NCBI GenBank assembly: GCA_016839585.1
Contig: JAEOTZ010000056.1
Coordinates: forward strand, 19,967-83,966
Source: Promethearchaeota archaeon
GTDB taxonomy: Archaea > Asgardarchaeota > Lokiarchaeia > Sigyniarchaeales > SOKP01
Length of the DNA stretch: 64,000 nucleotides
Direction of reading: 5' to 3'
Shown: in pieces, positions 42,328 to 63,468 of the stretch
How positions within the stretch are numbered: position 1 is the stretch's first letter
Layout: each line of letters starts with the position of its first letter
Program-made: the position numbers and the translations under genes
Notes under the pieces: generated by a model
What the model was told of the DNA's origin: nothing
The model's database searches: none
The model's input: the letters and a program-made list of their open reading frames with translations, nothing else

Positions 42328-43254
42328 TTGTCAGAAAAACCAGAAATAGAAAAACTTGAAATAGAGGCTGCGAAACTAGAAGGAGTAAAAGTAAAAGATA
42401 ACGAGCTTTTATTAGTTGATGAATTTGTTCAAGATTATGCTCCAGAAATTGCTCACATTTATGATTTTAGAGAGGATGAATCAGAAGAACAACAAATTAA
42501 AACAGGACGACTTCATGAAAACCGTATCTTAGGTATTATCTTAAAATTTTACCTAGCAGGTAAAAAGAAAATTACTACAACTGAAGTTGAGCAAGAGTAT
42601 AAAAGATATTATAAAGAAATTGCTCGTTCTACAATTTCGACTTACTTAAATATGCTAAAAAAAGAATCCACATTATATAAAGAAAGAGATGGTAGAGTAG
42701 TTTATTACATTTTTTATGAAGATCCTCCAAAAAATATTAAGCCATTTTGGTTTACTAGAATTTTTTGTATTGTTCCAGCTTACTTTGATAGAGCAATATA
42801 TTTTTCGAAATTTTATCTAGAGTCTGAATTATATACTCAAGAATACATTAAACGAACCAGCAATGGAAATAAACAACTATTAAACAAGAATTTCAAATTT
42901 CTGACTGGTTTAATTGTTTTAAATATTTTAAAAAATAGAAGTTCAAAATGTGTACTTTGTCAATTTAGTAAACGAGAAATTTATAATACTTTACAGGAGG
43001 TAATATCGGTTGCAATTAAAGACCGATCTGATGTTTTACCTGAAGAATTGTTAGATATTCTAATCCATGAGTATTCAGAAATCCCTATATTTAATGGGAT
43101 CAATATTGAATGTCAAGAAACAGAAAAACTAATACTTGAAAAGATCTTTAAATTTGCTGACAATTATAAAAAAGATTTAGAATTTCAGATAATGGTTTCA
43201 AGTAGAAGACAAGATATAAGATTACAACAAAAAGAAATTATGGAACAAGAATAA
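42328..43254 (+). CDS. Winged-HTH domain transcriptional regulator
   Basis: ITTTEVEQEY...IARSTISTYLNMLKKESTLYKERDGRVVYY. Confidence 0.7.
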   Translation: MSEKPEIEKLEIEAAKLEGVKVKDNELLLVDEFVQDYAPEIAHIYDFREDESEEQQIKTGRLHENRILGIILKFYLAGKKKITTTEVEQEYKRYYKEIARSTISTYLNMLKKESTLYKERDGRVVYYIFYEDPPKNIKPFWFTRIFCIVPAYFDRAIYFSKFYLESELYTQEYIKRTSNGNKQLLNKNFKFLTGLIVLNILKNRSSKCVLCQFSKREIYNTLQEVISVAIKDRSDVLPEELLDILIHEYSEIPIFNGINIECQETEKLILEKIFKFADNYKKDLEFQIMVSSRRQDIRLQQKEIMEQE

Positions 43255-49695: not shown

Positions 49696-50157
49696 TTATA
49701 ATATCCCTTTTAGTTTTTGATCAATAGTTTTTGTATCAGTTCCAAAAACTTTATCAAGATTTTGCTTAAAATTCCTAAATTGAGAAACTTGTGATAAATT
49801 CTTACCAGTATTAAGCGATTTAAATTCTTTTAAGATTTTATGTAATGATGGTTGAACTATTTTCTGAATATACTTGTCAATCTTCTTCTCTTTATCTAAT
49901 ATGGCGTAAGAAATCAGAAGTTCAGGTTCATTACTATTATCAGATAATATTTTATCCCCAATAAAAGCTATAGTAAATTTTTTTCCTTCAAAATATTCAA
50001 CTAAACCCTGTGAAAAGGCACTTTCTGCAAAATTTAGGAAAGCAGTTAACAATCCACTTCTTAAATCTACATCGATTTTTCCAAGACTAGTTTTATGATA
50101 ACTTTTCTTTACTACAGTAAATCCTCTAAACAATAATCCAGCTTCTCGGACGACCAT
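49696..50157 (-). CDS. Longin-like small protein (Asgard type)
   Basis: DVDLRSGLLTAFLNFAE resembles the D..L.SG...AI..F..E longin helix. Confidence 0.55.
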   Translation of the reverse strand: MVVREAGLLFRGFTVVKKSYHKTSLGKIDVDLRSGLLTAFLNFAESAFSQGLVEYFEGKKFTIAFIGDKILSDNSNEPELLISYAILDKEKKIDKYIQKIVQPSLHKILKEFKSLNTGKNLSQVSQFRNFKQNLDKVFGTDTKTIDQKLKGIL

Positions 50158-50401
50158 ATTGAGATTTAAATCTATTGATTTTTTTAACTAATTGAAGAAT
50201 TTCCAAAAAGTAATTTATTTAATAATTTAAATATAACAATCCAATTTAATAAAATCTTTCCTCATTAAAAAGAATTAGAGATTCATTATGTTTACCTACT
50301 AAAAAATACATAATCGTATAAATTAATCTATTTCCAGTCAATTCCAATTTTTAAGAGGTTAAACAACAAGAATTTTTATATTTTATATATTTCTTAAAAC
50401 T

Positions 50402-51589
50402 ATGATTACCAAAGATAAAGTTAAGTTATGTGCTGAAAATATTGCCAGAAGCATAAATATAAAAAAAGATGGCGAATTCATTCTTATAAGAGGAGGTGCT
50501 TATTCCCAAGAATTATTAGAAGAGATAGGATTAACCGTTTTAAGAAAAGGAGGGATTCCTCATATCTCATATACATCAGATTACTATACAGAAACTATTT
50601 TTCAAGATGATCAAATCAAAGTTGAGACACTAGAAAAAACTCCCTTACATTATCTAAAAATGATTGAAAATATAGATGCTTATATCGTTATCGAGCCTTT
50701 AGGGGATCCTTCAATTACTACTAAAGCACCAAGAGAAAAAGTAGATGCTGCTGCTAAATCTAGAGCTCCTATTCGAGAGATTCTTTATGGTTTTAAGGAA
50801 GAATATGCCCCTGGTAAAAAATGGTGCTATGCTGCCTGGCCCTCAAAAAAAGCCGCAGAATTCTATAATATAGATTATGATTTATATGAAAAGTTTATTG
50901 TCGGAGGAATGAGTGTTCCTTATGATGAAATGAATAAACTTACAAAAAATTTAGGAAGATTTTTCGATAGAGCTAAGAAAGTGTATGTAAAGGATGAATT
51001 TGGAACTGATTTTTGGGTTTCAATAGAAAACAGAAAAAAAATTCTTGATGATGGAATCATTTCAGATGAACAAATTGAATTAGGAGATTTAGGGGGTAAT
51101 TTACCGGCTGGAGAAGTATTTTTCCCACCTAATGAAAAACAAGGTGAGGGTAAACTCTTTTGTCCTTTAACTAAAGATAGATTCACAGATAAAATCATAA
51201 GAAATGTTGAATTAAGTTTTAAAGAGGGAAAATTGTTAATAGATAAAACAACTGCCGATACTAACTTAGAAGATTTAATTGCTTCTTTTAAAAAATGTGA
51301 AGAAATGGATAAAGAGAATAAAGTACCTGAACTTAGAACTTATAATGTTGCTGAACTTGGAATAGGGTGTAATCCGGAAATTACACGAGCAATTGGATAT
51401 ATCCTTACTGATGAAAAGATAATTGGGAGTGTACATTTAGCATTTGGATTTAATAAAAGTTTTGGGGGAACCTCCGCATCCCAAATGCACTGGGACTTTG
51501 TAACTGCTCCTAAAGCTAATATTACTGTTGAATATCAGGATGGGTCCAAAAAATTAATAATGGAAAATGGCAAATTAACTGAAAAATAA
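50402..51589 (+). CDS. Aminopeptidase (peptidase M29)
   Basis: NLPAGEVF, AELGIGCN, DEKIIGSVHLAFG and HWDFV motifs. Confidence 0.9.
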   Translation: MITKDKVKLCAENIARSINIKKDGEFILIRGGAYSQELLEEIGLTVLRKGGIPHISYTSDYYTETIFQDDQIKVETLEKTPLHYLKMIENIDAYIVIEPLGDPSITTKAPREKVDAAAKSRAPIREILYGFKEEYAPGKKWCYAAWPSKKAAEFYNIDYDLYEKFIVGGMSVPYDEMNKLTKNLGRFFDRAKKVYVKDEFGTDFWVSIENRKKILDDGIISDEQIELGDLGGNLPAGEVFFPPNEKQGEGKLFCPLTKDRFTDKIIRNVELSFKEGKLLIDKTTADTNLEDLIASFKKCEEMDKENKVPELRTYNVAELGIGCNPEITRAIGYILTDEKIIGSVHLAFGFNKSFGGTSASQMHWDFVTAPKANITVEYQDGSKKLIMENGKLTEK

Positions 51590-51605
51590 GGGTATTAGTG
51601 AAAAA

Positions 51606-52079
51606 CTAAGTTAATTTTTCAATATATTGGAGTACTTTTTCTAATACTTTTTTTTTAAATGTTATTCGGTCTGTCTTGAAATTGTATTTCTCCACAATAC
51701 ATTCTTTTTCATTTGAAAAACCAATAAAAACCAGCCCTATTGGCTTTTCTGGTGTCCCACCAGTTGGACCTGCAATACCACTAATACCAATACCAATATC
51801 TACATTTGATTGTATTCTAATATTTTCTGCTAACTCTCTTACAATTTCTTCGGATACTGCACCATTTTCTTCAAGAGTATTTGGATCTACATTTAATAGG
51901 TCTATTTTTGCTTGATTATTATAGCATACAATACCCCTTTCAAATACATTCGAAGCACCTGAAACATTGGTAAACATATTCGAAATATAACCTCCTGTAC
52001 ATGATTCTGCTACAGCAATTCGAATATTTTTTTCTGAAAAATTTTTAATTATCTTCTCGATTCTTCTTAAAATAGCCAA
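51606..52079 (-). CDS. pncC: CinA/PncC-family NMN deamidase
   Basis: AESCTGG, GAVS and SGIAGPTGG..EKP.GLV motifs. Confidence 0.9.
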   Translation of the reverse strand: MAILRRIEKIIKNFSEKNIRIAVAESCTGGYISNMFTNVSGASNVFERGIVCYNNQAKIDLLNVDPNTLEENGAVSEEIVRELAENIRIQSNVDIGIGISGIAGPTGGTPEKPIGLVFIGFSNEKECIVEKYNFKTDRITFKKKVLEKVLQYIEKLT

Positions 52080-52088
52080 TTTACATCA

Positions 52089-52535
52089 TTACCTTTTTAT
52101 CTCAAATTTTTTACCACATGAATTGCAATATTGCCCCTTTTTGCTCATAGGATTTCCACAGTAAGGACAAAACAATTTTGGAGAATTTTTTTTAATAGGG
52201 GCAAGTGATTTATAGATATCTGGTTCTTTTTCTCCAAAAGGTTGGTATAACAAATTTTTTTCAACAACTTTCTGAAAACATCTAGGACAATACTGCTTTT
52301 TCTTAATAGCATAATAGAAGACATAGGGATTGATTACCATAAAAAACCACATAAAATATAAAAAGAGAATAATCCCAGAAAAAATAAAAGAAGTTATAAC
52401 GGTAATAGTGGTTAAAATAATTAATATCATAACAGAAAAAATACCAAATATTTTGATATTAAATTTTGGTCTTGTTGGAAAGACGTTCATTTTACAACTT
52501 TCACAGAACTTCATTTCGTTTATATCTTGACTCAT
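52089..52535 (-). CDS. Membrane Zn-ribbon protein (LITAF-like topology)
   Basis: CxxC, hydrophobic hairpin, CxxC, plus a C-terminal double-CxxC ribbon. Confidence 0.7.
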   Translation of the reverse strand: MSQDINEMKFCESCKMNVFPTRPKFNIKIFGIFSVMILIILTTITVITSFIFSGIILFLYFMWFFMVINPYVFYYAIKKKQYCPRCFQKVVEKNLLYQPFGEKEPDIYKSLAPIKKNSPKLFCPYCGNPMSKKGQYCNSCGKKFEIKR

Positions 52536-52702
52536 ATTTCTCTATGGAAACATTTAAAACAATTTGCTATTATTATAAAAAATACCATAAATATAAATTA
52601 ATAACAAATAAAAATAAATAATTAAATAATATCTTATACTTTTGAAATTTTAAAGCAATAGTATAGATTTATTCGGAAAAAAAATTTTACAGAGTGATTT
52701 AA

Positions 52703-53271
52703 ATGAGAAATAATGAAGATAAAAAAGGCTTCGTCTTCAAAATCACAGATCTATTGAAAAAATTCAGTAGAGTGAACTTATTGGCGACGGAGCAGTAGGG
52801 AAAACCTCATTAATCAAAAAATACACTCAAGGGAGTTTTCAAAGGGACTACATTAAAACATTAGGAGCACAATTTTCAAAATATGATGAGGAGATTGAAG
52901 GAGATAATTGTAAATTATTTTTCTGGGATATTGCTGGTCAGGATGAATTCAATTTCATGCGTCCTACCTTTTATAAAGGCTCAAAAGCTGCTATAATAGT
53001 TTTTTCATACACTGATGATGATAGTTTTGACCATATCCCCCAATGGCATGATGATATTATAAAATATTGTGGTGATCTCCCAATAGTTTTATTTGGAAAC
53101 AAAATTGATTTAATCAAAAAAGAGGATTTAGATGATGCGAAGGCTAAAGAAATTGTAAAAGAAAGAAGTTTTCTTGGATATTATAGAACAAGTGCTAAAA
53201 CAGGAAGTGGAGTATATAAAGCATTTCAGGCAATAATTAAAGAATTATATTATAGATATAAAGAAGATTAA
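52703..53271 (+). CDS. Rab-like small GTPase interrupted by a 29-nt BHB intron (join 52703..52748, 52778..53271; 179 aa)
   Basis: Spliced product MRNNEDKKGFVFKITVIGDGAVGKTSL...TLGAQF...WDIAGQ...GNKID...TSAK has all G1-G5 boxes. The unspliced frame stops at TAG 52796. Confidence 0.88.
52749..52777 (+). other. Bulge-helix-bulge (tRNA-endonuclease-type) intron in an mRNA
   Basis: UCAC/GUGA 4-bp central helix, 3-nt bulges AG^A and AC^U, 9-bp intron stem UCUAUUGAA/UUCAGUAGA closed by AAAA. Confidence 0.85.
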
Positions 53272-53275
53272 TAAA

Positions 53276-53575
53276 ATGCATGAAGATTTTGGGCAAGATT
53301 ATCCTAAGATATTATTTTTTTCATCGAATCATTGCGCTCCTTGTAGACCAGTTGAAGAAATGCTGAAAAAAATAAACATTTCATTGTTTGGAAAAAAATT
53401 AAGAATAGAAAAAATATTGATTGATCTTGAAGAAAACCGAGGATTTACACAAGAATATCGAATCACCTCTGTGCCAACATTAGTTATAGCAGAAAAAAAA
53501 TTAGCAGTAAACATTCAAGAAGAAGATATAATTGACGCAATTTTATATGCGTTTATAGCATCTGTAAAAATATAA
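53276..53575 (+). CDS. Thioredoxin-fold protein
   Basis: HCAPC active site and ITSVPTL cis-Pro loop. Confidence 0.85.
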   Translation: MHEDFGQDYPKILFFSSNHCAPCRPVEEMLKKINISLFGKKLRIEKILIDLEENRGFTQEYRITSVPTLVIAEKKLAVNIQEEDIIDAILYAFIASVKI

Positions 53576-53639
53576 TTTTAAATAAAAAATATTAAAAAGA
53601 TTTGAATAAAGTAAGGAATAAAATTTTAAGTGAATTTGT

Positions 53640-54119
53640 ATGGATCGACCACTATTATCTAAAATTTTGGCTCAAATGAAAAAGAATTTAAAAGAAGGAA
53701 AATCAATAGGAGATATGAAGGTTGGGGCTTTATTAGCTTTAGGACACCAACTAGAAGCGATTTTCTATTATTTAGGACACGAATTAGGGACAATTCTAAA
53801 AGTCAAACAAATTACTGATGTAAACAAAATACCTGATGAATTAAAAAAGACGATCTCTGAATATAATCTAGGAGATGTTGAAATTACAGATAGTTCAGAT
53901 GAAATAGTACAATTAAAGTTGAAAGGGCATTCATCCATCAAGGATTTAATTAATAAAGGAATCAAAACAACTGGTAGTTTTTGTTCATTCGAAGCGGGAT
54001 TGCTAGCTGGAGTTGTAGAAAAAATAAGCGATCATCATTGCTTTGCCCAGGAATTAGAATGTAGTTTGCAATCAGATAAGGGATACTGTGAATTTATGAT
54101 AGTTTTTCAAAAAGAATAA
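53640..54119 (+). CDS. V4R-domain protein (Bet3/TRAPP-related fold)
   Basis: YYLGHELG, FCSFEAGLLAG and ELEC...G.CEF, the V4R Cys/Glu pattern. Confidence 0.8.
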   Translation: MDRPLLSKILAQMKKNLKEGKSIGDMKVGALLALGHQLEAIFYYLGHELGTILKVKQITDVNKIPDELKKTISEYNLGDVEITDSSDEIVQLKLKGHSSIKDLINKGIKTTGSFCSFEAGLLAGVVEKISDHHCFAQELECSLQSDKGYCEFMIVFQKE

Positions 54120-54222
54120 GTTCAATTTATTCGAATATTTAACAAGAAACTTGAGTCGAAAATTATTAATAAGTATAAACTATATTGTGAATATAAAATA
54201 AAACTGTAAGTTTTGATCAACA

Positions 54223-54750
54223 ATGAGCGAACCAGCATATATATTAAAAATAGTTCTTCTTGGAGAGGCTAATGTAGGTAAAACTTCGTTACTTTACAGG
54301 TGGATCGAAAATAAATTTAGAGAAAATTACAAATCAACCTTAGGAGTTAATCTTCTAAAAAAAGATATGAATATAACTGGATATGGTGAGGTTTCTGCTC
54401 AAATTTGGGATTTAGGAGGTCAAGAATCTTTTAAATCTCTCAGAAGATTATACCTAGAGGGAGCTAATGGAGCATTATTGTTATATGATGTGACAAATAA
54501 AGAATCATATGAAAAACTTGATGAATGGATACAAAGCTTTAAAGAAGATAGAGAAAATGAACCTATCATTTTAATTGGGAATAAATCAGATTTAAAAGAT
54601 AAAATTAAAATTACTGATAAAGACGCTAATGAATTCGCAAAAAGAAATAAAGTGGATATAATTATTACATCAGCTAAAACAGGGAAAAATGTGGAAAAAT
54701 CATTTATTGAATTGACTACAAAAATCTTAAAGAAGATTTCAAAAGAATAA
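54223..54750 (+). CDS. Rab-like small GTPase
   Basis: GEANVGKT, TLGV, WDLGGQ, GNKSD and TSAK motifs. Confidence 0.93.
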   Translation: MSEPAYILKIVLLGEANVGKTSLLYRWIENKFRENYKSTLGVNLLKKDMNITGYGEVSAQIWDLGGQESFKSLRRLYLEGANGALLLYDVTNKESYEKLDEWIQSFKEDRENEPIILIGNKSDLKDKIKITDKDANEFAKRNKVDIIITSAKTGKNVEKSFIELTTKILKKISKE

Positions 54751-54992
54751 AAGTCTAAGAATATAACCAAACTAAATTATTTACATCTTTAATTTTTACA
54801 AGGATATTTCAAAGTGAAAATGTAAATATCAAAATTTGGTGATTTTAGCACATATCTTTTTTAAATCAACTATGTCTTTTTAAATAAATTTAAATAAAAA
54901 CCTTTATTTAAATAAAATTATAAAAAATACCATGAAAGAAAGAATATATTTTTTTATTAAATTTCAAATCACAATTATCTTACCTAATTATT

Positions 54993-55685
54993 ATGTCAGA
55001 AGAAAATAATGAATTTAATGAGGATTCTGAAGAAAAATTCGAAGAAAAAATTGAAGAGGAAGAGGAGGGATTCGAAGGGGAGTATGATTATGAAACTAAT
55101 TTAGATTATAAAATAGAGAATGTTGTAGCAACAGTAGTTGTTGAAATTACAGAAAAGATTGATCTAAACCAGATTGCACGGCGCCATGCAGAGGTCGAAT
55201 ATAATCCAGAACGGTTTCCTGGTCTTGTAATGCGGATTGAAAAACCACGTGCGACTATTTTAATATTTTCTACTGGAAAAATGGTTGTAACGGGACTTAG
55301 ACAAGCATCCGAAGCTGAACGAGTCGTTGATAAAGTTGTAAAAAACATAAGAAAAGCTGGAATTAGACTAGCTAATCCAGAAATAACGATTCAAAACATT
55401 GTGGCCTCAGGTGATCTACATACAAATATAGATCTCAATATGGCCGCTATTGTGATGGAATACGCAATGTATGAACCAGAGGTATTTCCTGGGTTAATTT
55501 ATCGTATGCAGGACCCAAAAACTGTTTTCCTAATCTTTTCAACTGGTAGAATTGTTTGTACAGGAGCAAAACGAAAAGAGGTTGTTAGAGAAGCAGTTTT
55601 AAAATTAAATCAACAAGTTCGAGATTTAGGTGTTGCTAAAAAAGATATAGGAGAATCAGAATATCAAGATATAACTTTCATCTAA
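54993..55685 (+). CDS. tbp: TATA-box binding protein
   Basis: Two repeats IENVVA...YNPERFPGL...LIFSTGKMVVTG; acidic N-terminal extension. Confidence 0.97.
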   Translation: MSEENNEFNEDSEEKFEEKIEEEEEGFEGEYDYETNLDYKIENVVATVVVEITEKIDLNQIARRHAEVEYNPERFPGLVMRIEKPRATILIFSTGKMVVTGLRQASEAERVVDKVVKNIRKAGIRLANPEITIQNIVASGDLHTNIDLNMAAIVMEYAMYEPEVFPGLIYRMQDPKTVFLIFSTGRIVCTGAKRKEVVREAVLKLNQQVRDLGVAKKDIGESEYQDITFI

Positions 55686-55785
55686 ATCTCTTATCTTTTT
55701 TGATTTTTTAATCCATTTATTGTAATATTCAAGTTGTATTATTTAGATTCTTATAAACTTTCAGAGAATATATTTAAACTTATAT

Positions 55786-56124
55786 TTAGATGACTTTCTT
55801 TTCATTAATAGCATTAATAGAAACAATATATTCATCATATAATGCATGTAATAACTTGGATTCTTTAGCTTTATTAAATGTTAAAAGAAAAAGTCGGTTT
55901 AATGATTTCTCATTATTGATTTCATAAATATCATCATTAATTCCTAAGTGATCACTATTTTGATCAAGAAAATTACACAAAATGTATCTGTTTTCTCTTC
56001 TCAAATTCACTTTATTCAAGGCTCCAAACATTTTTAAGATTAAAGGTCCTTGATATTTAATTTTCTTATGATTGATTGATTGAAAGAATTTAAGGTATTC
56101 ATTTCTTTTTATAGGAACCGACAT
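55786..56124 (-). CDS. Hypothetical protein
   Basis: 112-aa ORF with no recognised motif. Confidence 0.6.
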   Translation of the reverse strand: MSVPIKRNEYLKFFQSINHKKIKYQGPLILKMFGALNKVNLRRENRYILCNFLDQNSDHLGINDDIYEINNEKSLNRLFLLTFNKAKESKLLHALYDEYIVSINAINEKKVI

Positions 56125-62901: not shown

Positions 62902-63468
62902 TTAAACATTTATGCCAAAATTCTTCAAAATTCGATTGACCAAAAGTGAGAATGCTTCTTCAATATTTTCTCCGAGTTTTGCACTAGTCTCTATAAAATT
63001 ACTTGCTTTAATTTTTTCTGATAATTCTTTTCCATTTTCAGCTGGTACAGCCCTCTGTTTTTTTAAGTCACTCTTATTACCAATTAAAATATAAGCGCCT
63101 TCTTTTTTTACATATCTTTTAAAATCTTTTAACCATTTTGAATTTATACTGTCAAACGTATGATATCGTGTAATATCATAAACTAAAAATGCACCAACAC
63201 ATCCCTGAAAATACATACTCCTTATCACGCTGTATTTCTCTTGTCCAGCTAAATCCCACATTATTAATCTAACTTTCGTGTTTATATCTTCTAAATTCAC
63301 ATCTTTACGAATTATATTCGCACCTAATGTTGGTTTGTAATCTTCTTCAAAGAAACTTTCACAATATCGTGTAATAAGGCTTGTTTTACCCACAGCAGCA
63401 TCACCGAGTAAAACAATCTTAAATACATATTCTTTTACGAAGCTTTCTTTAATTTCTTCTGTTGTCAT
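62902..63468 (-). CDS. Rab-like small GTPase
   Basis: GDAAVGKT, TLGA, WDLAGQ, GNKSD and ETSAK motifs. Confidence 0.93.
   Translation of the reverse strand: MTTEEIKESFVKEYVFKIVLLGDAAVGKTSLITRYCESFFEEDYKPTLGANIIRKDVNLEDINTKVRLIMWDLAGQEKYSVIRSMYFQGCVGAFLVYDITRYHTFDSINSKWLKDFKRYVKKEGAYILIGNKSDLKKQRAVPAENGKELSEKIKASNFIETSAKLGENIEEAFSLLVNRILKNFGINV

What the first reader, a model, noticed from the sequence alone, without database searches (positions are those of the whole stretch)
52703..53271. tRNA-type (bulge-helix-bulge) intron inside the mRNA of an Asgard Rab-like GTPase
Seen in sequence: the gene starts MRNNEDKKGFVFKIT, then shifts frame and stops after 31 codons (TAG 52796). The P-loop (IGDGAVGKT) and the rest of the GTPase lie in another frame. 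The intervening RNA folds as a textbook BHB: exon arm CAAAA/UAUUG (one A-A mismatch), central helix UCAC(52743-46)/GUGA(52772-75), two 3-nt bulges AGA(52747-49) and ACU(52776-78), and a 9-bp stem UCUAUUGAA/UUCAGUAGA with an AAAA loop. Established: archaeal splicing endonuclease EndA cuts after the second nucleotide of each bulge and RtcB ligates. Applying that rule removes exactly 52749-52777 (29 nt) and joins ACA-G|TT-ATT, giving FVFKITVIGDGAVGKT. This matches the YVFKIVLLGDAAVGKT of the intact paralogue at 62902 and yields a 179-aa protein with G1-G5. BHB introns in archaeal mRNAs are rare; the crenarchaeal cbf5 intron is the classic case. Inference: splicing is obligatory for expression, so this eukaryotic-signature GTPase may be gated by EndA/RtcB activity, mechanistically reminiscent of the frameshifting non-spliceosomal HAC1/XBP1 introns. 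Such introns would be mis-annotated as truncated genes.
Basis: partly seen in the sequence, partly recalled or inferred. Interest (0 to 1): 0.95.

Follow-up and report, generated by a model that had tools for sequence, protein, structure and literature searches.

The report
tRNA-type mini-intron in Asgard GTPase gene
A small Ras/Rab-like GTPase gene of a Loki-type Asgard archaeon is interrupted by a 29-base hairpin shaped like the motif that the archaeal tRNA-splicing enzyme cuts; comparison with relatives shows the gene is alive, so its messenger RNA is almost certainly spliced, which is very rare in archaea.

Summary
The exons are 52703-52748 and 52778-53271, separated by 29 nt (52749-52777) that fold as a near-textbook bulge-helix-bulge (BHB). 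Cutting by the EndA rule gives a 179-aa Ras-family GTPase.

- All 54 species of the genus have one orthologue. 45 have no intron and read exactly the predicted junction (FKITVIG). Nine carry an insert.
- There are two intron types, 29 nt and 30 nt, with the same architecture. Their cut sites lie 2 nt apart.
- Eight more intron-bearing copies lie on metagenome contigs.
- Both types keep the BHB through compensatory changes.
- Intron-bearing genes are under strong purifying selection (dN/dS 0.04-0.10, the same range as intronless ones).
- The insert is present in contigs of a run from an independent study.
- The genome encodes two EndA paralogues and RtcB.
- At least four other genes' inserts in this genome (E2, RNase HII, PFK twice) have the same build.

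No RNA data exist, so splicing is inferred and not observed. This scan had already flagged BHB mini-introns in other genes of this genome. I found no paper describing them in Asgard mRNAs.

The parts
52690..52702 (+). Conserved upstream motif CAGAGTGATTTAA just before the start codon. It is probably the ribosome-binding region.
   Evidence: The same (A/G)AGTGA(T/A)TTAAATG context precedes the ATG in nearly all 54 orthologues. That marks the exon 1 ATG as the real start.
52703..52748 (+). Exon 1: 15 codons (MRNNEDKKGFVFKIT) plus the first base (G) of the Val codon.
   Evidence: Against intronless L021 (95% identical) exon 1 has 6 synonymous and no amino-acid changes.
52730..52740 (+). 5' strand of the outer (exon) helix: UUCGUC and UCAA.
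   Evidence: In the MFE fold it pairs with 52781-52791. It is 100% paired in 8 distinct type A sequences, with G-C to G.U changes.
52743..52746 (+). Central 4-bp helix, exon strand (UCAC).
   Evidence: Pairs with 52772-52775. 100% paired across type A sequences. The Ile codon ATC that supplies it occurs in 3 of 3 type A genes but only 2 of 45 intronless genes.
52747..52749 (+). 5' three-base bulge AGA. The predicted cut is between 52748 and 52749.
   Evidence: Applying the EndA rule here gives the conserved Val codon; shifting the cut by one base either way would give Leu or Asp (my reading).
52749..52777 (+). Intron, 29 nt, type A. Build: 1 bulge base, 9-nt arm, 4-nt loop, 9-nt arm, 4-nt central-helix strand, 2 bulge bases.
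   Evidence: Absent from 45 of 54 orthologues. Present unchanged in Logan contigs of two other runs, one from another study. Single copy in the genome.
52750..52771 (+). Inner (intron) hairpin: 9 bp (52750-58 with 52763-71) and loop AAAA (52759-62).
   Evidence: Two of the nine pairs show changes on both sides (U-A to A-U, A-U to G-C), and 95.8% of cells are paired.
52772..52775 (+). Central 4-bp helix, intron strand (GUGA).
   Evidence: GUGA changes to GUGG in two species, which keeps U.G pairing.
52776..52778 (+). 3' three-base bulge ACU. The predicted cut is between 52777 and 52778.
   Evidence: The MFE fold widens this to a 5-nt loop side, ACUUA, so this side is relaxed and not strict.
52778..53271 (+). 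Exon 2: the last two bases of the Val codon, then IGDGAVGKT... to the stop at 53269-53271. It holds all of G1-G5 (GDGAVGKT, switch-I T, DIAGQ, NKID, SAK).
   Evidence: translation; Pfam Ras PF00071, 8e-44, profile positions 5-160 of 162.
52781..52791 (+). 3' strand of the outer (exon) helix: UUGG and GACGGA.

Best explanation
The 29 nt at 52749-52777 are a bulge-helix-bulge (archaeal tRNA-type) intron inside the coding sequence of a Ras-family small GTPase gene of a Loki-lineage Asgard archaeon.

Proposed mechanism:
- The gene is transcribed from its normal start.
- The exon sequence UCAC pairs with GUGA at the intron's 3' end, forming the 4-bp central helix.
- A 9-bp intron hairpin and a weaker exon-exon helix flank that helix, which exposes two 3-nt bulges.
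- The splicing endonuclease cuts after the second base of each bulge. Here it is probably an (alpha-beta)2 heterotetramer of the two EndA paralogues.
- RtcB joins ...ACAG to TTATT..., restoring the frame, and a 179-aa GTPase is translated.

Shown in silico: the structure, its conservation, the exactness of the junction, selection on both exons, the genomic reality of the insert, and the presence of the enzymes. Inferred: cleavage and ligation in the cell.

The intron is most likely a tolerated, heritable element that is often lost and not a regulatory device. A second intron type (30 nt, same architecture, cut 2 nt upstream) occupies the same spot in other species of the genus.
For: - Orthologues: one orthologue in each of the 54 species of the genus. 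45 are intronless and read FxFKITVIG(D/N)G, and all 54 give 178-181 aa after removal of the insert. The closest intronless one has ACAGTTATT, identical to the predicted ligation product.
- Type A structure: three genus genomes plus six metagenome contigs. Over 8 distinct sequences, 97.8% of cells pair, against 38-47% when the partners are slid, and 2 pairs show compensatory changes.
- Type B structure: 6 genomes. The central helix GAUY/GAUY pairs in 100% of cells. 5 of the 9 inner pairs show changes on both sides, and the covariation score exceeds 500 of 500 shuffles.
- Selection: dN/dS between intron-bearing genes is 0.04-0.10 at dS 0.3-2.0. Intronless pairs give 0.04-0.07. There are no other stops or frameshifts.
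- Exon codon choice tracks the intron. ATC is used in all type A genes against 2 of 45 intronless. AAG is used in all type B genes against 9 of 45.
- Genomic reality: a 378-nt contig and a 527-nt contig from two other runs, one from another study, carry the insert. No DNA joint skips it.
- Machinery: two EndA catalytic-domain genes (201 and 200 aa; by my reading only the first keeps the His) and one RtcB.
- Same build elsewhere in this genome: 30-32-nt inserts split the E2 motif FPE|NYPF, the RNase HII motif DEAGRGP, and the PFK motifs GGGDCPG and IGGDDTLG.
Against: - No RNA evidence: no RNA run holds the locus.
- The 3' bulge and outer helix are not strictly canonical. The MFE fold shows a 2x5 internal loop, and the strict form needs a lone A-U next to an A.A mismatch.
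- For type B the BHB is the MFE fold in only 1 of 6 sequences, although it costs only a few kcal/mol more in the others.
- The outer-helix pairs never vary in a way that tests them, because they lie in coding sequence.
- Relatives are not independent, so the shuffle statistics overstate the support.
Confidence: 0.85

Rival explanations
1. Translational recoding: the mRNA is not spliced, and the ribosome hops over the 29-30-nt hairpin as in phage T4 gene 60, producing a full-length GTPase.
For: A stable hairpin begins right after the last exon 1 codon. The gene is under purifying selection in both exons, which requires some way of reading through.
Against: - The conserved Val codon is split G|UU across the insert, so hopping could not produce it.
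- There is no matching take-off and landing codon pair. After ACA the only ACN downstream, ACU at 52776-78, is out of frame with exon 2.
- In the unspliced frame the first stop comes 15 codons after the junction, not directly after a take-off site.
- The conserved features are exactly those of an EndA substrate: a 4-bp helix and two 3-nt bulges, in two unrelated intron sequences.
Confidence: 0.04
2. A dead or dying gene: the insert is a small insertion that inactivated this one of about 50 Ras-family paralogues, and the fit to a BHB is fortuitous.
For: The genome has about 50 Ras-family paralogues, so losing one could be tolerated. Most orthologues lack the insert.
Against: - dN/dS is 0.10 between the two closest intron-bearing genes and 0.05-0.09 between type B bearers at dS up to 2.
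- Seventeen intron-bearing sequences were seen, and the nine genus genes examined have no second lesion.
- Exon 1 has only synonymous changes against its closest intronless relative.
- The insert itself changes by structure-preserving substitutions.
Confidence: 0.04
3. The intron is real and spliced by EndA/RtcB, and it also works as a regulatory gate: the GTPase is made only when splicing capacity allows, as with HAC1/XBP1.
For: Splicing would be obligatory for a functional product. The cbf5 authors proposed a negative-regulator role for their intron (PMC2738675). In Haloferax, removal of the HVO_1309 5'-UTR intron appears important for that gene's expression (PMC7714728).
Against: - 45 of 54 orthologues have no intron, including the sister of the window's lineage. 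Any gate is therefore dispensable.
- Similar inserts sit in unrelated housekeeping genes: RNase HII, PFK and E2. That fits a neutral or selfish spread.
- No Ire1-type signal is present.
Confidence: 0.07

Closest known systems
cbf5 pre-mRNA intron of Crenarchaeota (Aeropyrum, Sulfolobus, Desulfurococcales; Watanabe 2002; Yokobori 2009, PMC2738675)
   Same: A BHB intron inside the coding sequence of an archaeal protein gene. It must be removed for a functional protein, it has a patchy distribution read as gain and secondary loss, and the host has a broad-specificity EndA.
   Different: A different phylum (Asgard) and a different gene (a Ras-family GTPase, a eukaryotic-signature protein). Two intron types lie 2 nt apart at one site within one genus. 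Several other genes in the same genome are interrupted too. cbf5 splicing was shown by RT-PCR; here it is only inferred.
HVO_1309 5'-UTR BHB intron of Haloferax volcanii (PMC7714728)
   Same: An mRNA cut at BHB sites by the tRNA-splicing endonuclease. It is the only other archaeal mRNA substrate reported in that paper.
   Different: That intron lies in the untranslated leader and does not interrupt the reading frame. It was shown in vivo and in vitro. The host has a homodimeric-type EndA that needs strict BHB motifs.
BHB introns of Asgard tRNA genes (bioRxiv 10.64898/2026.10.13.758758)
   Same: The same lineage, the same motif and the same presumed enzymes. That preprint reports two EndA paralogues in 44 of 60 genomes and many independent gains. 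Here ARAGORN finds only 29 tRNA genes, 18 of them with introns.
   Different: Those introns are in tRNA genes. In my term search of its text the preprint has no occurrence of 'mRNA' and mentions protein-coding genes only as neighbouring markers.
HAC1/XBP1 unconventional splicing in eukaryotes
   Same: A short, frame-changing, non-spliceosomal intron in an mRNA, with the exons joined by a tRNA-type ligase (RtcB in animals). This comparison rests on established knowledge and was not tested here.
   Different: HAC1/XBP1 are cut by Ire1 at twin stem-loops and not by the tRNA endonuclease at a BHB. That system is stress-regulated, and no regulation is evident here. The resemblance covers only how it works.

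Membership tests
Archaeal bulge-helix-bulge (EndA-type) intron | A 4-bp central helix with a 3-nt bulge at each end, on opposite strands and each 3' of its helix strand | tested here: met
   UCAC/GUGA with bulges AGA and ACU. The helix and the 5' bulge are in the MFE fold. The central helix pairs in 100% of cells in both intron types.
Archaeal bulge-helix-bulge (EndA-type) intron | Flanking helices on both sides (strict hBHBh') | tested here: inconclusive
The inner helix is a solid 9 bp. In type B the outer helix is weak. A relaxed form would need a broad-specificity EndA.
Archaeal bulge-helix-bulge (EndA-type) intron | Cutting after the second base of each bulge yields the functional RNA | tested here: met
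   The predicted product reads ...KITVIGDGAVGKT and is 179 aa. 45 intronless orthologues read the same, and L021 has the identical 9 bases at the junction.
Archaeal bulge-helix-bulge (EndA-type) intron | The structure is maintained in evolution (covariation) | tested here: met
   Type A has 2 pairs and type B has 5 pairs with changes on both sides. Slid controls pair far less.
Archaeal bulge-helix-bulge (EndA-type) intron | The host encodes a splicing endonuclease and an RtcB ligase | tested here: met
   PF01974 matches at C2:77426-77650 and C39:1832-2080 (103 and 69 bits). PF01139 matches at C7:4311-5618 (561 bits).
Archaeal bulge-helix-bulge (EndA-type) intron | A spliced RNA and an excised (often circular) intron are observed, or the transcript is cleaved by EndA in vitro | not testable with these tools
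   No RNA run holds the stretch.
Ras-superfamily small GTPase (Pfam PF00071) | G1-G5 motifs and a profile match over the whole domain | tested here: met
   Exon 2 matches at 8e-44 over profile positions 5-160 of 162. GDGAVGKT, DIAGQ, NKID and SAK are present. Exon 1 supplies the beta-1 strand FKITV.
Eukaryote-type Rab subfamily | A C-terminal Cys prenylation motif and Rab-specific motifs | tested here: not met
   The C-terminus reads ...ELYYRYKED with no cysteine. Rab-specific motifs were not examined. Only 'Ras/Rab-like' is justified.
Programmed translational bypass (T4 gene 60 type) | Matching take-off and landing codons, with a stop directly after the take-off codon | tested here: not met
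   No in-frame matching codon pair exists. The Val codon is split across the insert. The first stop lies 15 codons downstream.
Ire1-type (HAC1/XBP1) intron | Twin stem-loops with conserved 7-nt loops at both splice sites | tested here: not met
   Both splice sites lie in 3-nt bulges of a single BHB, not in hairpin loops. The definition of this motif is from my own knowledge.

The most novel reading that the evidence does not exclude
This intron is one member of a large, undescribed population of 25-40-nt BHB mini-introns in protein-coding genes of Loki-lineage Asgard archaea. They are repeatedly gained and precisely lost, here as two types 2 nt apart at one hotspot. If so, routine enzymatic mRNA splicing by the tRNA machinery exists in the closest prokaryotic relatives of eukaryotes, and current gene calls in these genomes systematically truncate such genes.
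Probability: 0.6. Interest if true: 0.9.

Novelty: new member of a known kind. Interest (0 to 1): 0.8.

Why it matters
BHB introns in archaeal mRNAs have been documented for cbf5 in Crenarchaeota and for one Haloferax 5' UTR (PMC2738675, PMC7714728). This case is well supported by comparative evidence, lies in an Asgard archaeon, and sits in a eukaryotic-signature small GTPase.

- It comes with clear presence/absence variation across 54 species. That gives a natural experiment on intron gain, loss and sliding.
- It shows that gene finders will mis-call such genes. Here they would produce a 31-aa stub plus a 104-aa fragment.
- It makes a long-standing question directly testable with one RT-PCR or a metatranscriptome search: did the archaeal ancestors of eukaryotes already splice mRNAs enzymatically?

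Tried and rejected
- RNA evidence: no RNA holder is listed for window 50000-56000, so splicing could not be observed. Reads were laid on DNA contigs.
- Ab initio census of mRNA BHB introns in the genome, combining a BHB motif with ORF fusion and a codon-usage score. Five versions were tried. In every version the hits equalled the controls in which the removed length was changed by 1-2 nt (for example 394 against 385-426). The method cannot separate real introns from adjacent-gene noise in this 29% GC genome. This is not evidence against other introns.
- An exact-pattern scan of metagenome contigs for type A found nothing. The protein-guided scan did find more copies.
- A 24-nt similarity of the intron to C49:6866-6889 lies inside an uninterrupted ORF and is chance. 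The intron is therefore not a repeated element in this genome.
- Four other Ras paralogues have no start codon upstream (C61:24630+, C68:4407-, C20:11258+, C29:4028-). None showed a convincing BHB.
- A joint alignment of types A and B fails, because MAFFT aligns them by exon sequence and the two structures are offset by 2 nt. The types were analysed separately.
The register 2 nt upstream does.

Full report
**What is in the sequence.**
- An ORF starts at ATG 52703, reads MRNNEDKKGFVFKIT, runs on out of frame and stops at TAG 52796-52798.
- The P-loop and the rest of a small GTPase lie in another frame, from 52780 to the stop at 53269-53271. That piece matches Pfam Ras (PF00071) at 8e-44 but starts at profile position 5, so it lacks the first beta strand.
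- Between the two pieces the RNA folds as follows:

| Element | Positions |
|---|---|
| Central helix | UCAC 52743-46 with GUGA 52772-75 |
| 5' bulge | AGA 52747-49 |
| Inner stem (9 bp) | 52750-58 with 52763-71 |
| Loop | AAAA 52759-62 |

- This is both the minimum-free-energy and the centroid structure (-19.2 kcal/mol; shuffles average -8.8; z = -4.0).
- On the 3' side RNAfold prefers a 2x5 internal loop followed by UCAA/UUGG and UUCGUC/GACGGA. The strict 3-nt bulge ACU needs a lone A-U pair next to an A.A mismatch. The motif is therefore canonical on the 5' side and slightly relaxed on the 3' side.
- The layout is the one found in pre-tRNAs: outer strand, central strand, bulge, inner hairpin, central strand, bulge, outer strand. 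This point rests on established knowledge of the 37/38 tRNA intron.
- Cutting after the second base of each bulge removes 52749-52777 (29 nt). The result is a 179-aa ORF reading ...FVFKITVIGDGAVGKT....

**The orthologue test.**
- Exon 2 finds exactly one close orthologue (74-95% identity) in each of the 54 species genomes of the genus. I fetched all of them.
- 45 have no insert and read G-F-x-F-K-I-T-V-I-G-(D/N)-G without interruption. After removal of the inserts all 54 give proteins of 178-181 aa.
- The closest intronless relative (L021, 95%) has ACAGTTATT at the site. Those are the same nine bases the EndA rule predicts for the ligated window sequence. Shifting the 29-nt deletion by one base either way would put Leu or Asp in place of the invariant Val.

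**Two intron types.** Nine of the 54 species carry an insert.
- Type A is 29 nt and occurs in G000, G057 and G065.
- Type B is 30 nt with an unrelated sequence. It occurs in G019, G068, G048, G012, G049 and G069.
Shifted 2 nt upstream it has the same architecture as type A: central helix GAUY (from the exon, AAG-ATY) with GAUY (at the intron's 3' end), bulges ACU and A-N-N, a 9-position inner helix, and a 5-nt loop.
- Type A is built 1+9+4+9+4+2 bases and type B 1+9+5+9+4+2.
- Ligation of type B again gives K-I-T-V-I-G.
- A protein-guided scan of metagenome contigs added six more type A and two more type B copies from several projects.

**Structure conservation.**

| Measure | Type A | Type B |
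|---|---|---|
| Distinct sequences | 8 | 6 |
| Cells paired | 97.8% | 85.9% |
| Cells paired when partners are slid | 38-47% | 15-68% |
| Central helix paired | 100% | 100% |
| Inner pairs changed on both sides | 2 (U-A to A-U; A-U to G-C) | 5 of 9 (e.g. CGAU/AUCG, CAAU/AUUG, UGGU/ACCA) |
| Shuffles reaching the covariation score | 4 of 500 | 0 of 500 |

- Type B also has two positions that form a conserved U.U internal loop.
- The sequences are related, so these shuffle counts are indicative and are not probabilities.
- The exon half of the motif leaves a trace in codon choice. Ile is ATC in all type A genes but in only 2 of 45 intronless genes. Lys is AAG in all type B genes but in only 9 of 45 intronless genes.

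**The gene is alive.**
- Nei-Gojobori dN/dS between intron-bearing genes is 0.10 for G000 against G057 at dS 0.30. It is 0.05-0.09 among type B bearers at dS 0.6-2.0.
- Intronless pairs give 0.04-0.07.
- Exon 1 of the window differs from L021 by six synonymous changes and no amino-acid change.
- A conserved AGTGAT-TTAA-ATG context precedes the start codon in nearly all orthologues.
- Both exons are therefore translated in one frame, which requires that the insert be removed or skipped.

**Not an artefact.**
- Logan contigs from another sample of the same study span the insert: 378 nt, positions 52593-52970, with no difference.
- Contigs from a run of a different study also span it: 527 nt, positions 52592-53117, with one substitution and one extra A, both upstream of the ATG.
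- No DNA joint skips the insert.
- The other 16 intron-bearing sequences come from independent assemblies.

**Machinery.**
- The genome (99% complete) has two EndA catalytic-domain genes and one RtcB.
- The C2 product (201 aa) keeps the Tyr, His and Lys positions. The C39 product (200 aa) lacks the His by my reading.
- This fits an (alpha-beta)2 enzyme, the type known to accept relaxed BHB motifs (PMC5829648). A preprint reports that type in 44 of 60 Asgard genomes (10.64898/2026.10.13.758758).
- ARAGORN finds only 29 tRNA genes, 18 of them with introns. That is consistent with heavily interrupted tRNA genes.

**Context in the genome.** Notes from this scan had flagged BHB mini-introns in other genes of this genome. 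I checked four of them myself.

| Gene | Position (minus strand) | Length | Motif restored |
|---|---|---|---|
| E2 | C5:68318-68349 | 32 nt | FPE\|NYPFQPP |
| RNase HII | C52:9654-9683 | 30 nt | DEAGRGP |
| PFK | C62:43464-43494 | 31 nt | GGGDCPGLN |
| PFK | C62:43149-43178 | 30 nt | IGGDDTLG |

- The E2 insert has central helix CCAG/CTGG and two AAA bulges.
- The RNase HII insert has the same 1+9+5+9+4+2 build, with one central mismatch.
- The GTPase intron is therefore one of a set.
- My own attempt at an unbiased census failed, because signal equalled control.

**Evolution.**
- On the gene tree, G000 and G057 (type A) are sisters, and their next relative is intronless. G065 (type A) sits elsewhere.
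- Five type B genes are scattered through a 13-member clade among eight intronless genes. G019 (type B) lies in another clade.
- Within type B, intron similarity roughly follows the gene tree.
- The simplest reading is vertical descent with at least five precise losses, plus at least one further gain or transfer. The cbf5 intron was interpreted the same way (PMC2738675).
- Whether A and B are independent insertions at a BHB-prone spot (the exon reads GATCAC) or one intron that slid by 2 nt cannot be decided.
- The intron sequence is single copy in this genome.

**Mechanism and rivals.**
- Best explanation (0.85): EndA cleavage at 52748/52749 and 52777/52778, followed by RtcB ligation.
- Ribosomal hopping (0.04) fails on the split Val codon and the absence of take-off and landing codons.
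- A pseudogene (0.04) fails on selection and on 17 intact intron-bearing copies.
- A regulatory gate (0.07, a sub-case of splicing) has no support, because most orthologues and the sister lineage lack the intron.

**Literature.** Five searches of the held library found only two mRNA cases: cbf5, and the Haloferax HVO_1309 5' UTR. Nothing was found on Asgard mRNAs. The library is not complete, so this is absence in what was searched.

**Limits.**
- No RNA data are available.
- The outer helix is untested by covariation, because it lies in coding sequence.
- The tree is a gene tree, not a species tree.
- The Asgard/Loki assignment rests on indirect evidence. The genome has eukaryotic-signature content: five UQ_con matches (none in the 14 control genomes) and about 50 Ras-family genes. 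The relatives found lie on marine-sediment contigs. No marker-gene phylogeny was made.

Noticed in passing
L061:1816-1847 (= G000:C5:68318-68349, minus strand): A 32-nt BHB insert splits a ubiquitin E2 (UQ_con) gene. Central helix CCAG/CTGG with two AAA bulges. Removal restores FPE|NYPFQPP.
   Followed up: partly
L058:2078-2107 (= G000:C52:9654-9683, minus strand): A 30-nt insert with an in-frame TAG sits inside the RNase HII motif DEAGRGP. It has the same 1+9+5+9+4+2 build as type B here, with one mismatch in the central helix.
   Followed up: partly
L059:2475-2505 and L059:2160-2189 (= G000:C62:43464-43494 and 43149-43178, minus strand): Two inserts (31 and 30 nt) lie in the phosphofructokinase gene. 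Removal restores GGGDCPGLN and IGGDDTLG.
   Followed up: partly
G000:C2:58875-58904 (+), G000:C22:8920-8949 (+), G000:C42:29142-29174 (-): Three more strict BHB motifs (8-11 consecutive inner pairs) whose removal leaves an open frame across the junction. They are possible further mRNA introns. They were not checked against homologues.
   Followed up: no
window 53276-54750 (+): Directly downstream on the same strand lie a thioredoxin-like protein (53276-53575), a V4R/DUF2507-like protein (53640-54119; both Pfam matches are below the gathering score) and a second intact Ras-family GTPase (54223-54750). This may be an operon of two GTPases with partners.
   Followed up: no
window 52089-52535 (-): A 148-aa protein with a membrane stretch matches the LITAF-like zinc-ribbon domain (25.2 bits, cut-off 23.8) and also double zinc ribbons. 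The LITAF domain is mostly eukaryotic.
   Followed up: no
whole genome G000: ARAGORN finds only 29 tRNA genes in a 99%-complete genome, and 18 of them are called with introns. Many tRNA genes are probably hidden by multiple or non-canonical introns.
   Followed up: no
G000:C61:24630 (+), C68:4407 (-), C20:11258 (+), C29:4028 (-): Four Ras-family paralogues have frames with no ATG/GTG/TTG upstream of the P-loop region. No convincing BHB was found. They may use other starts or be decaying.
   Followed up: partly
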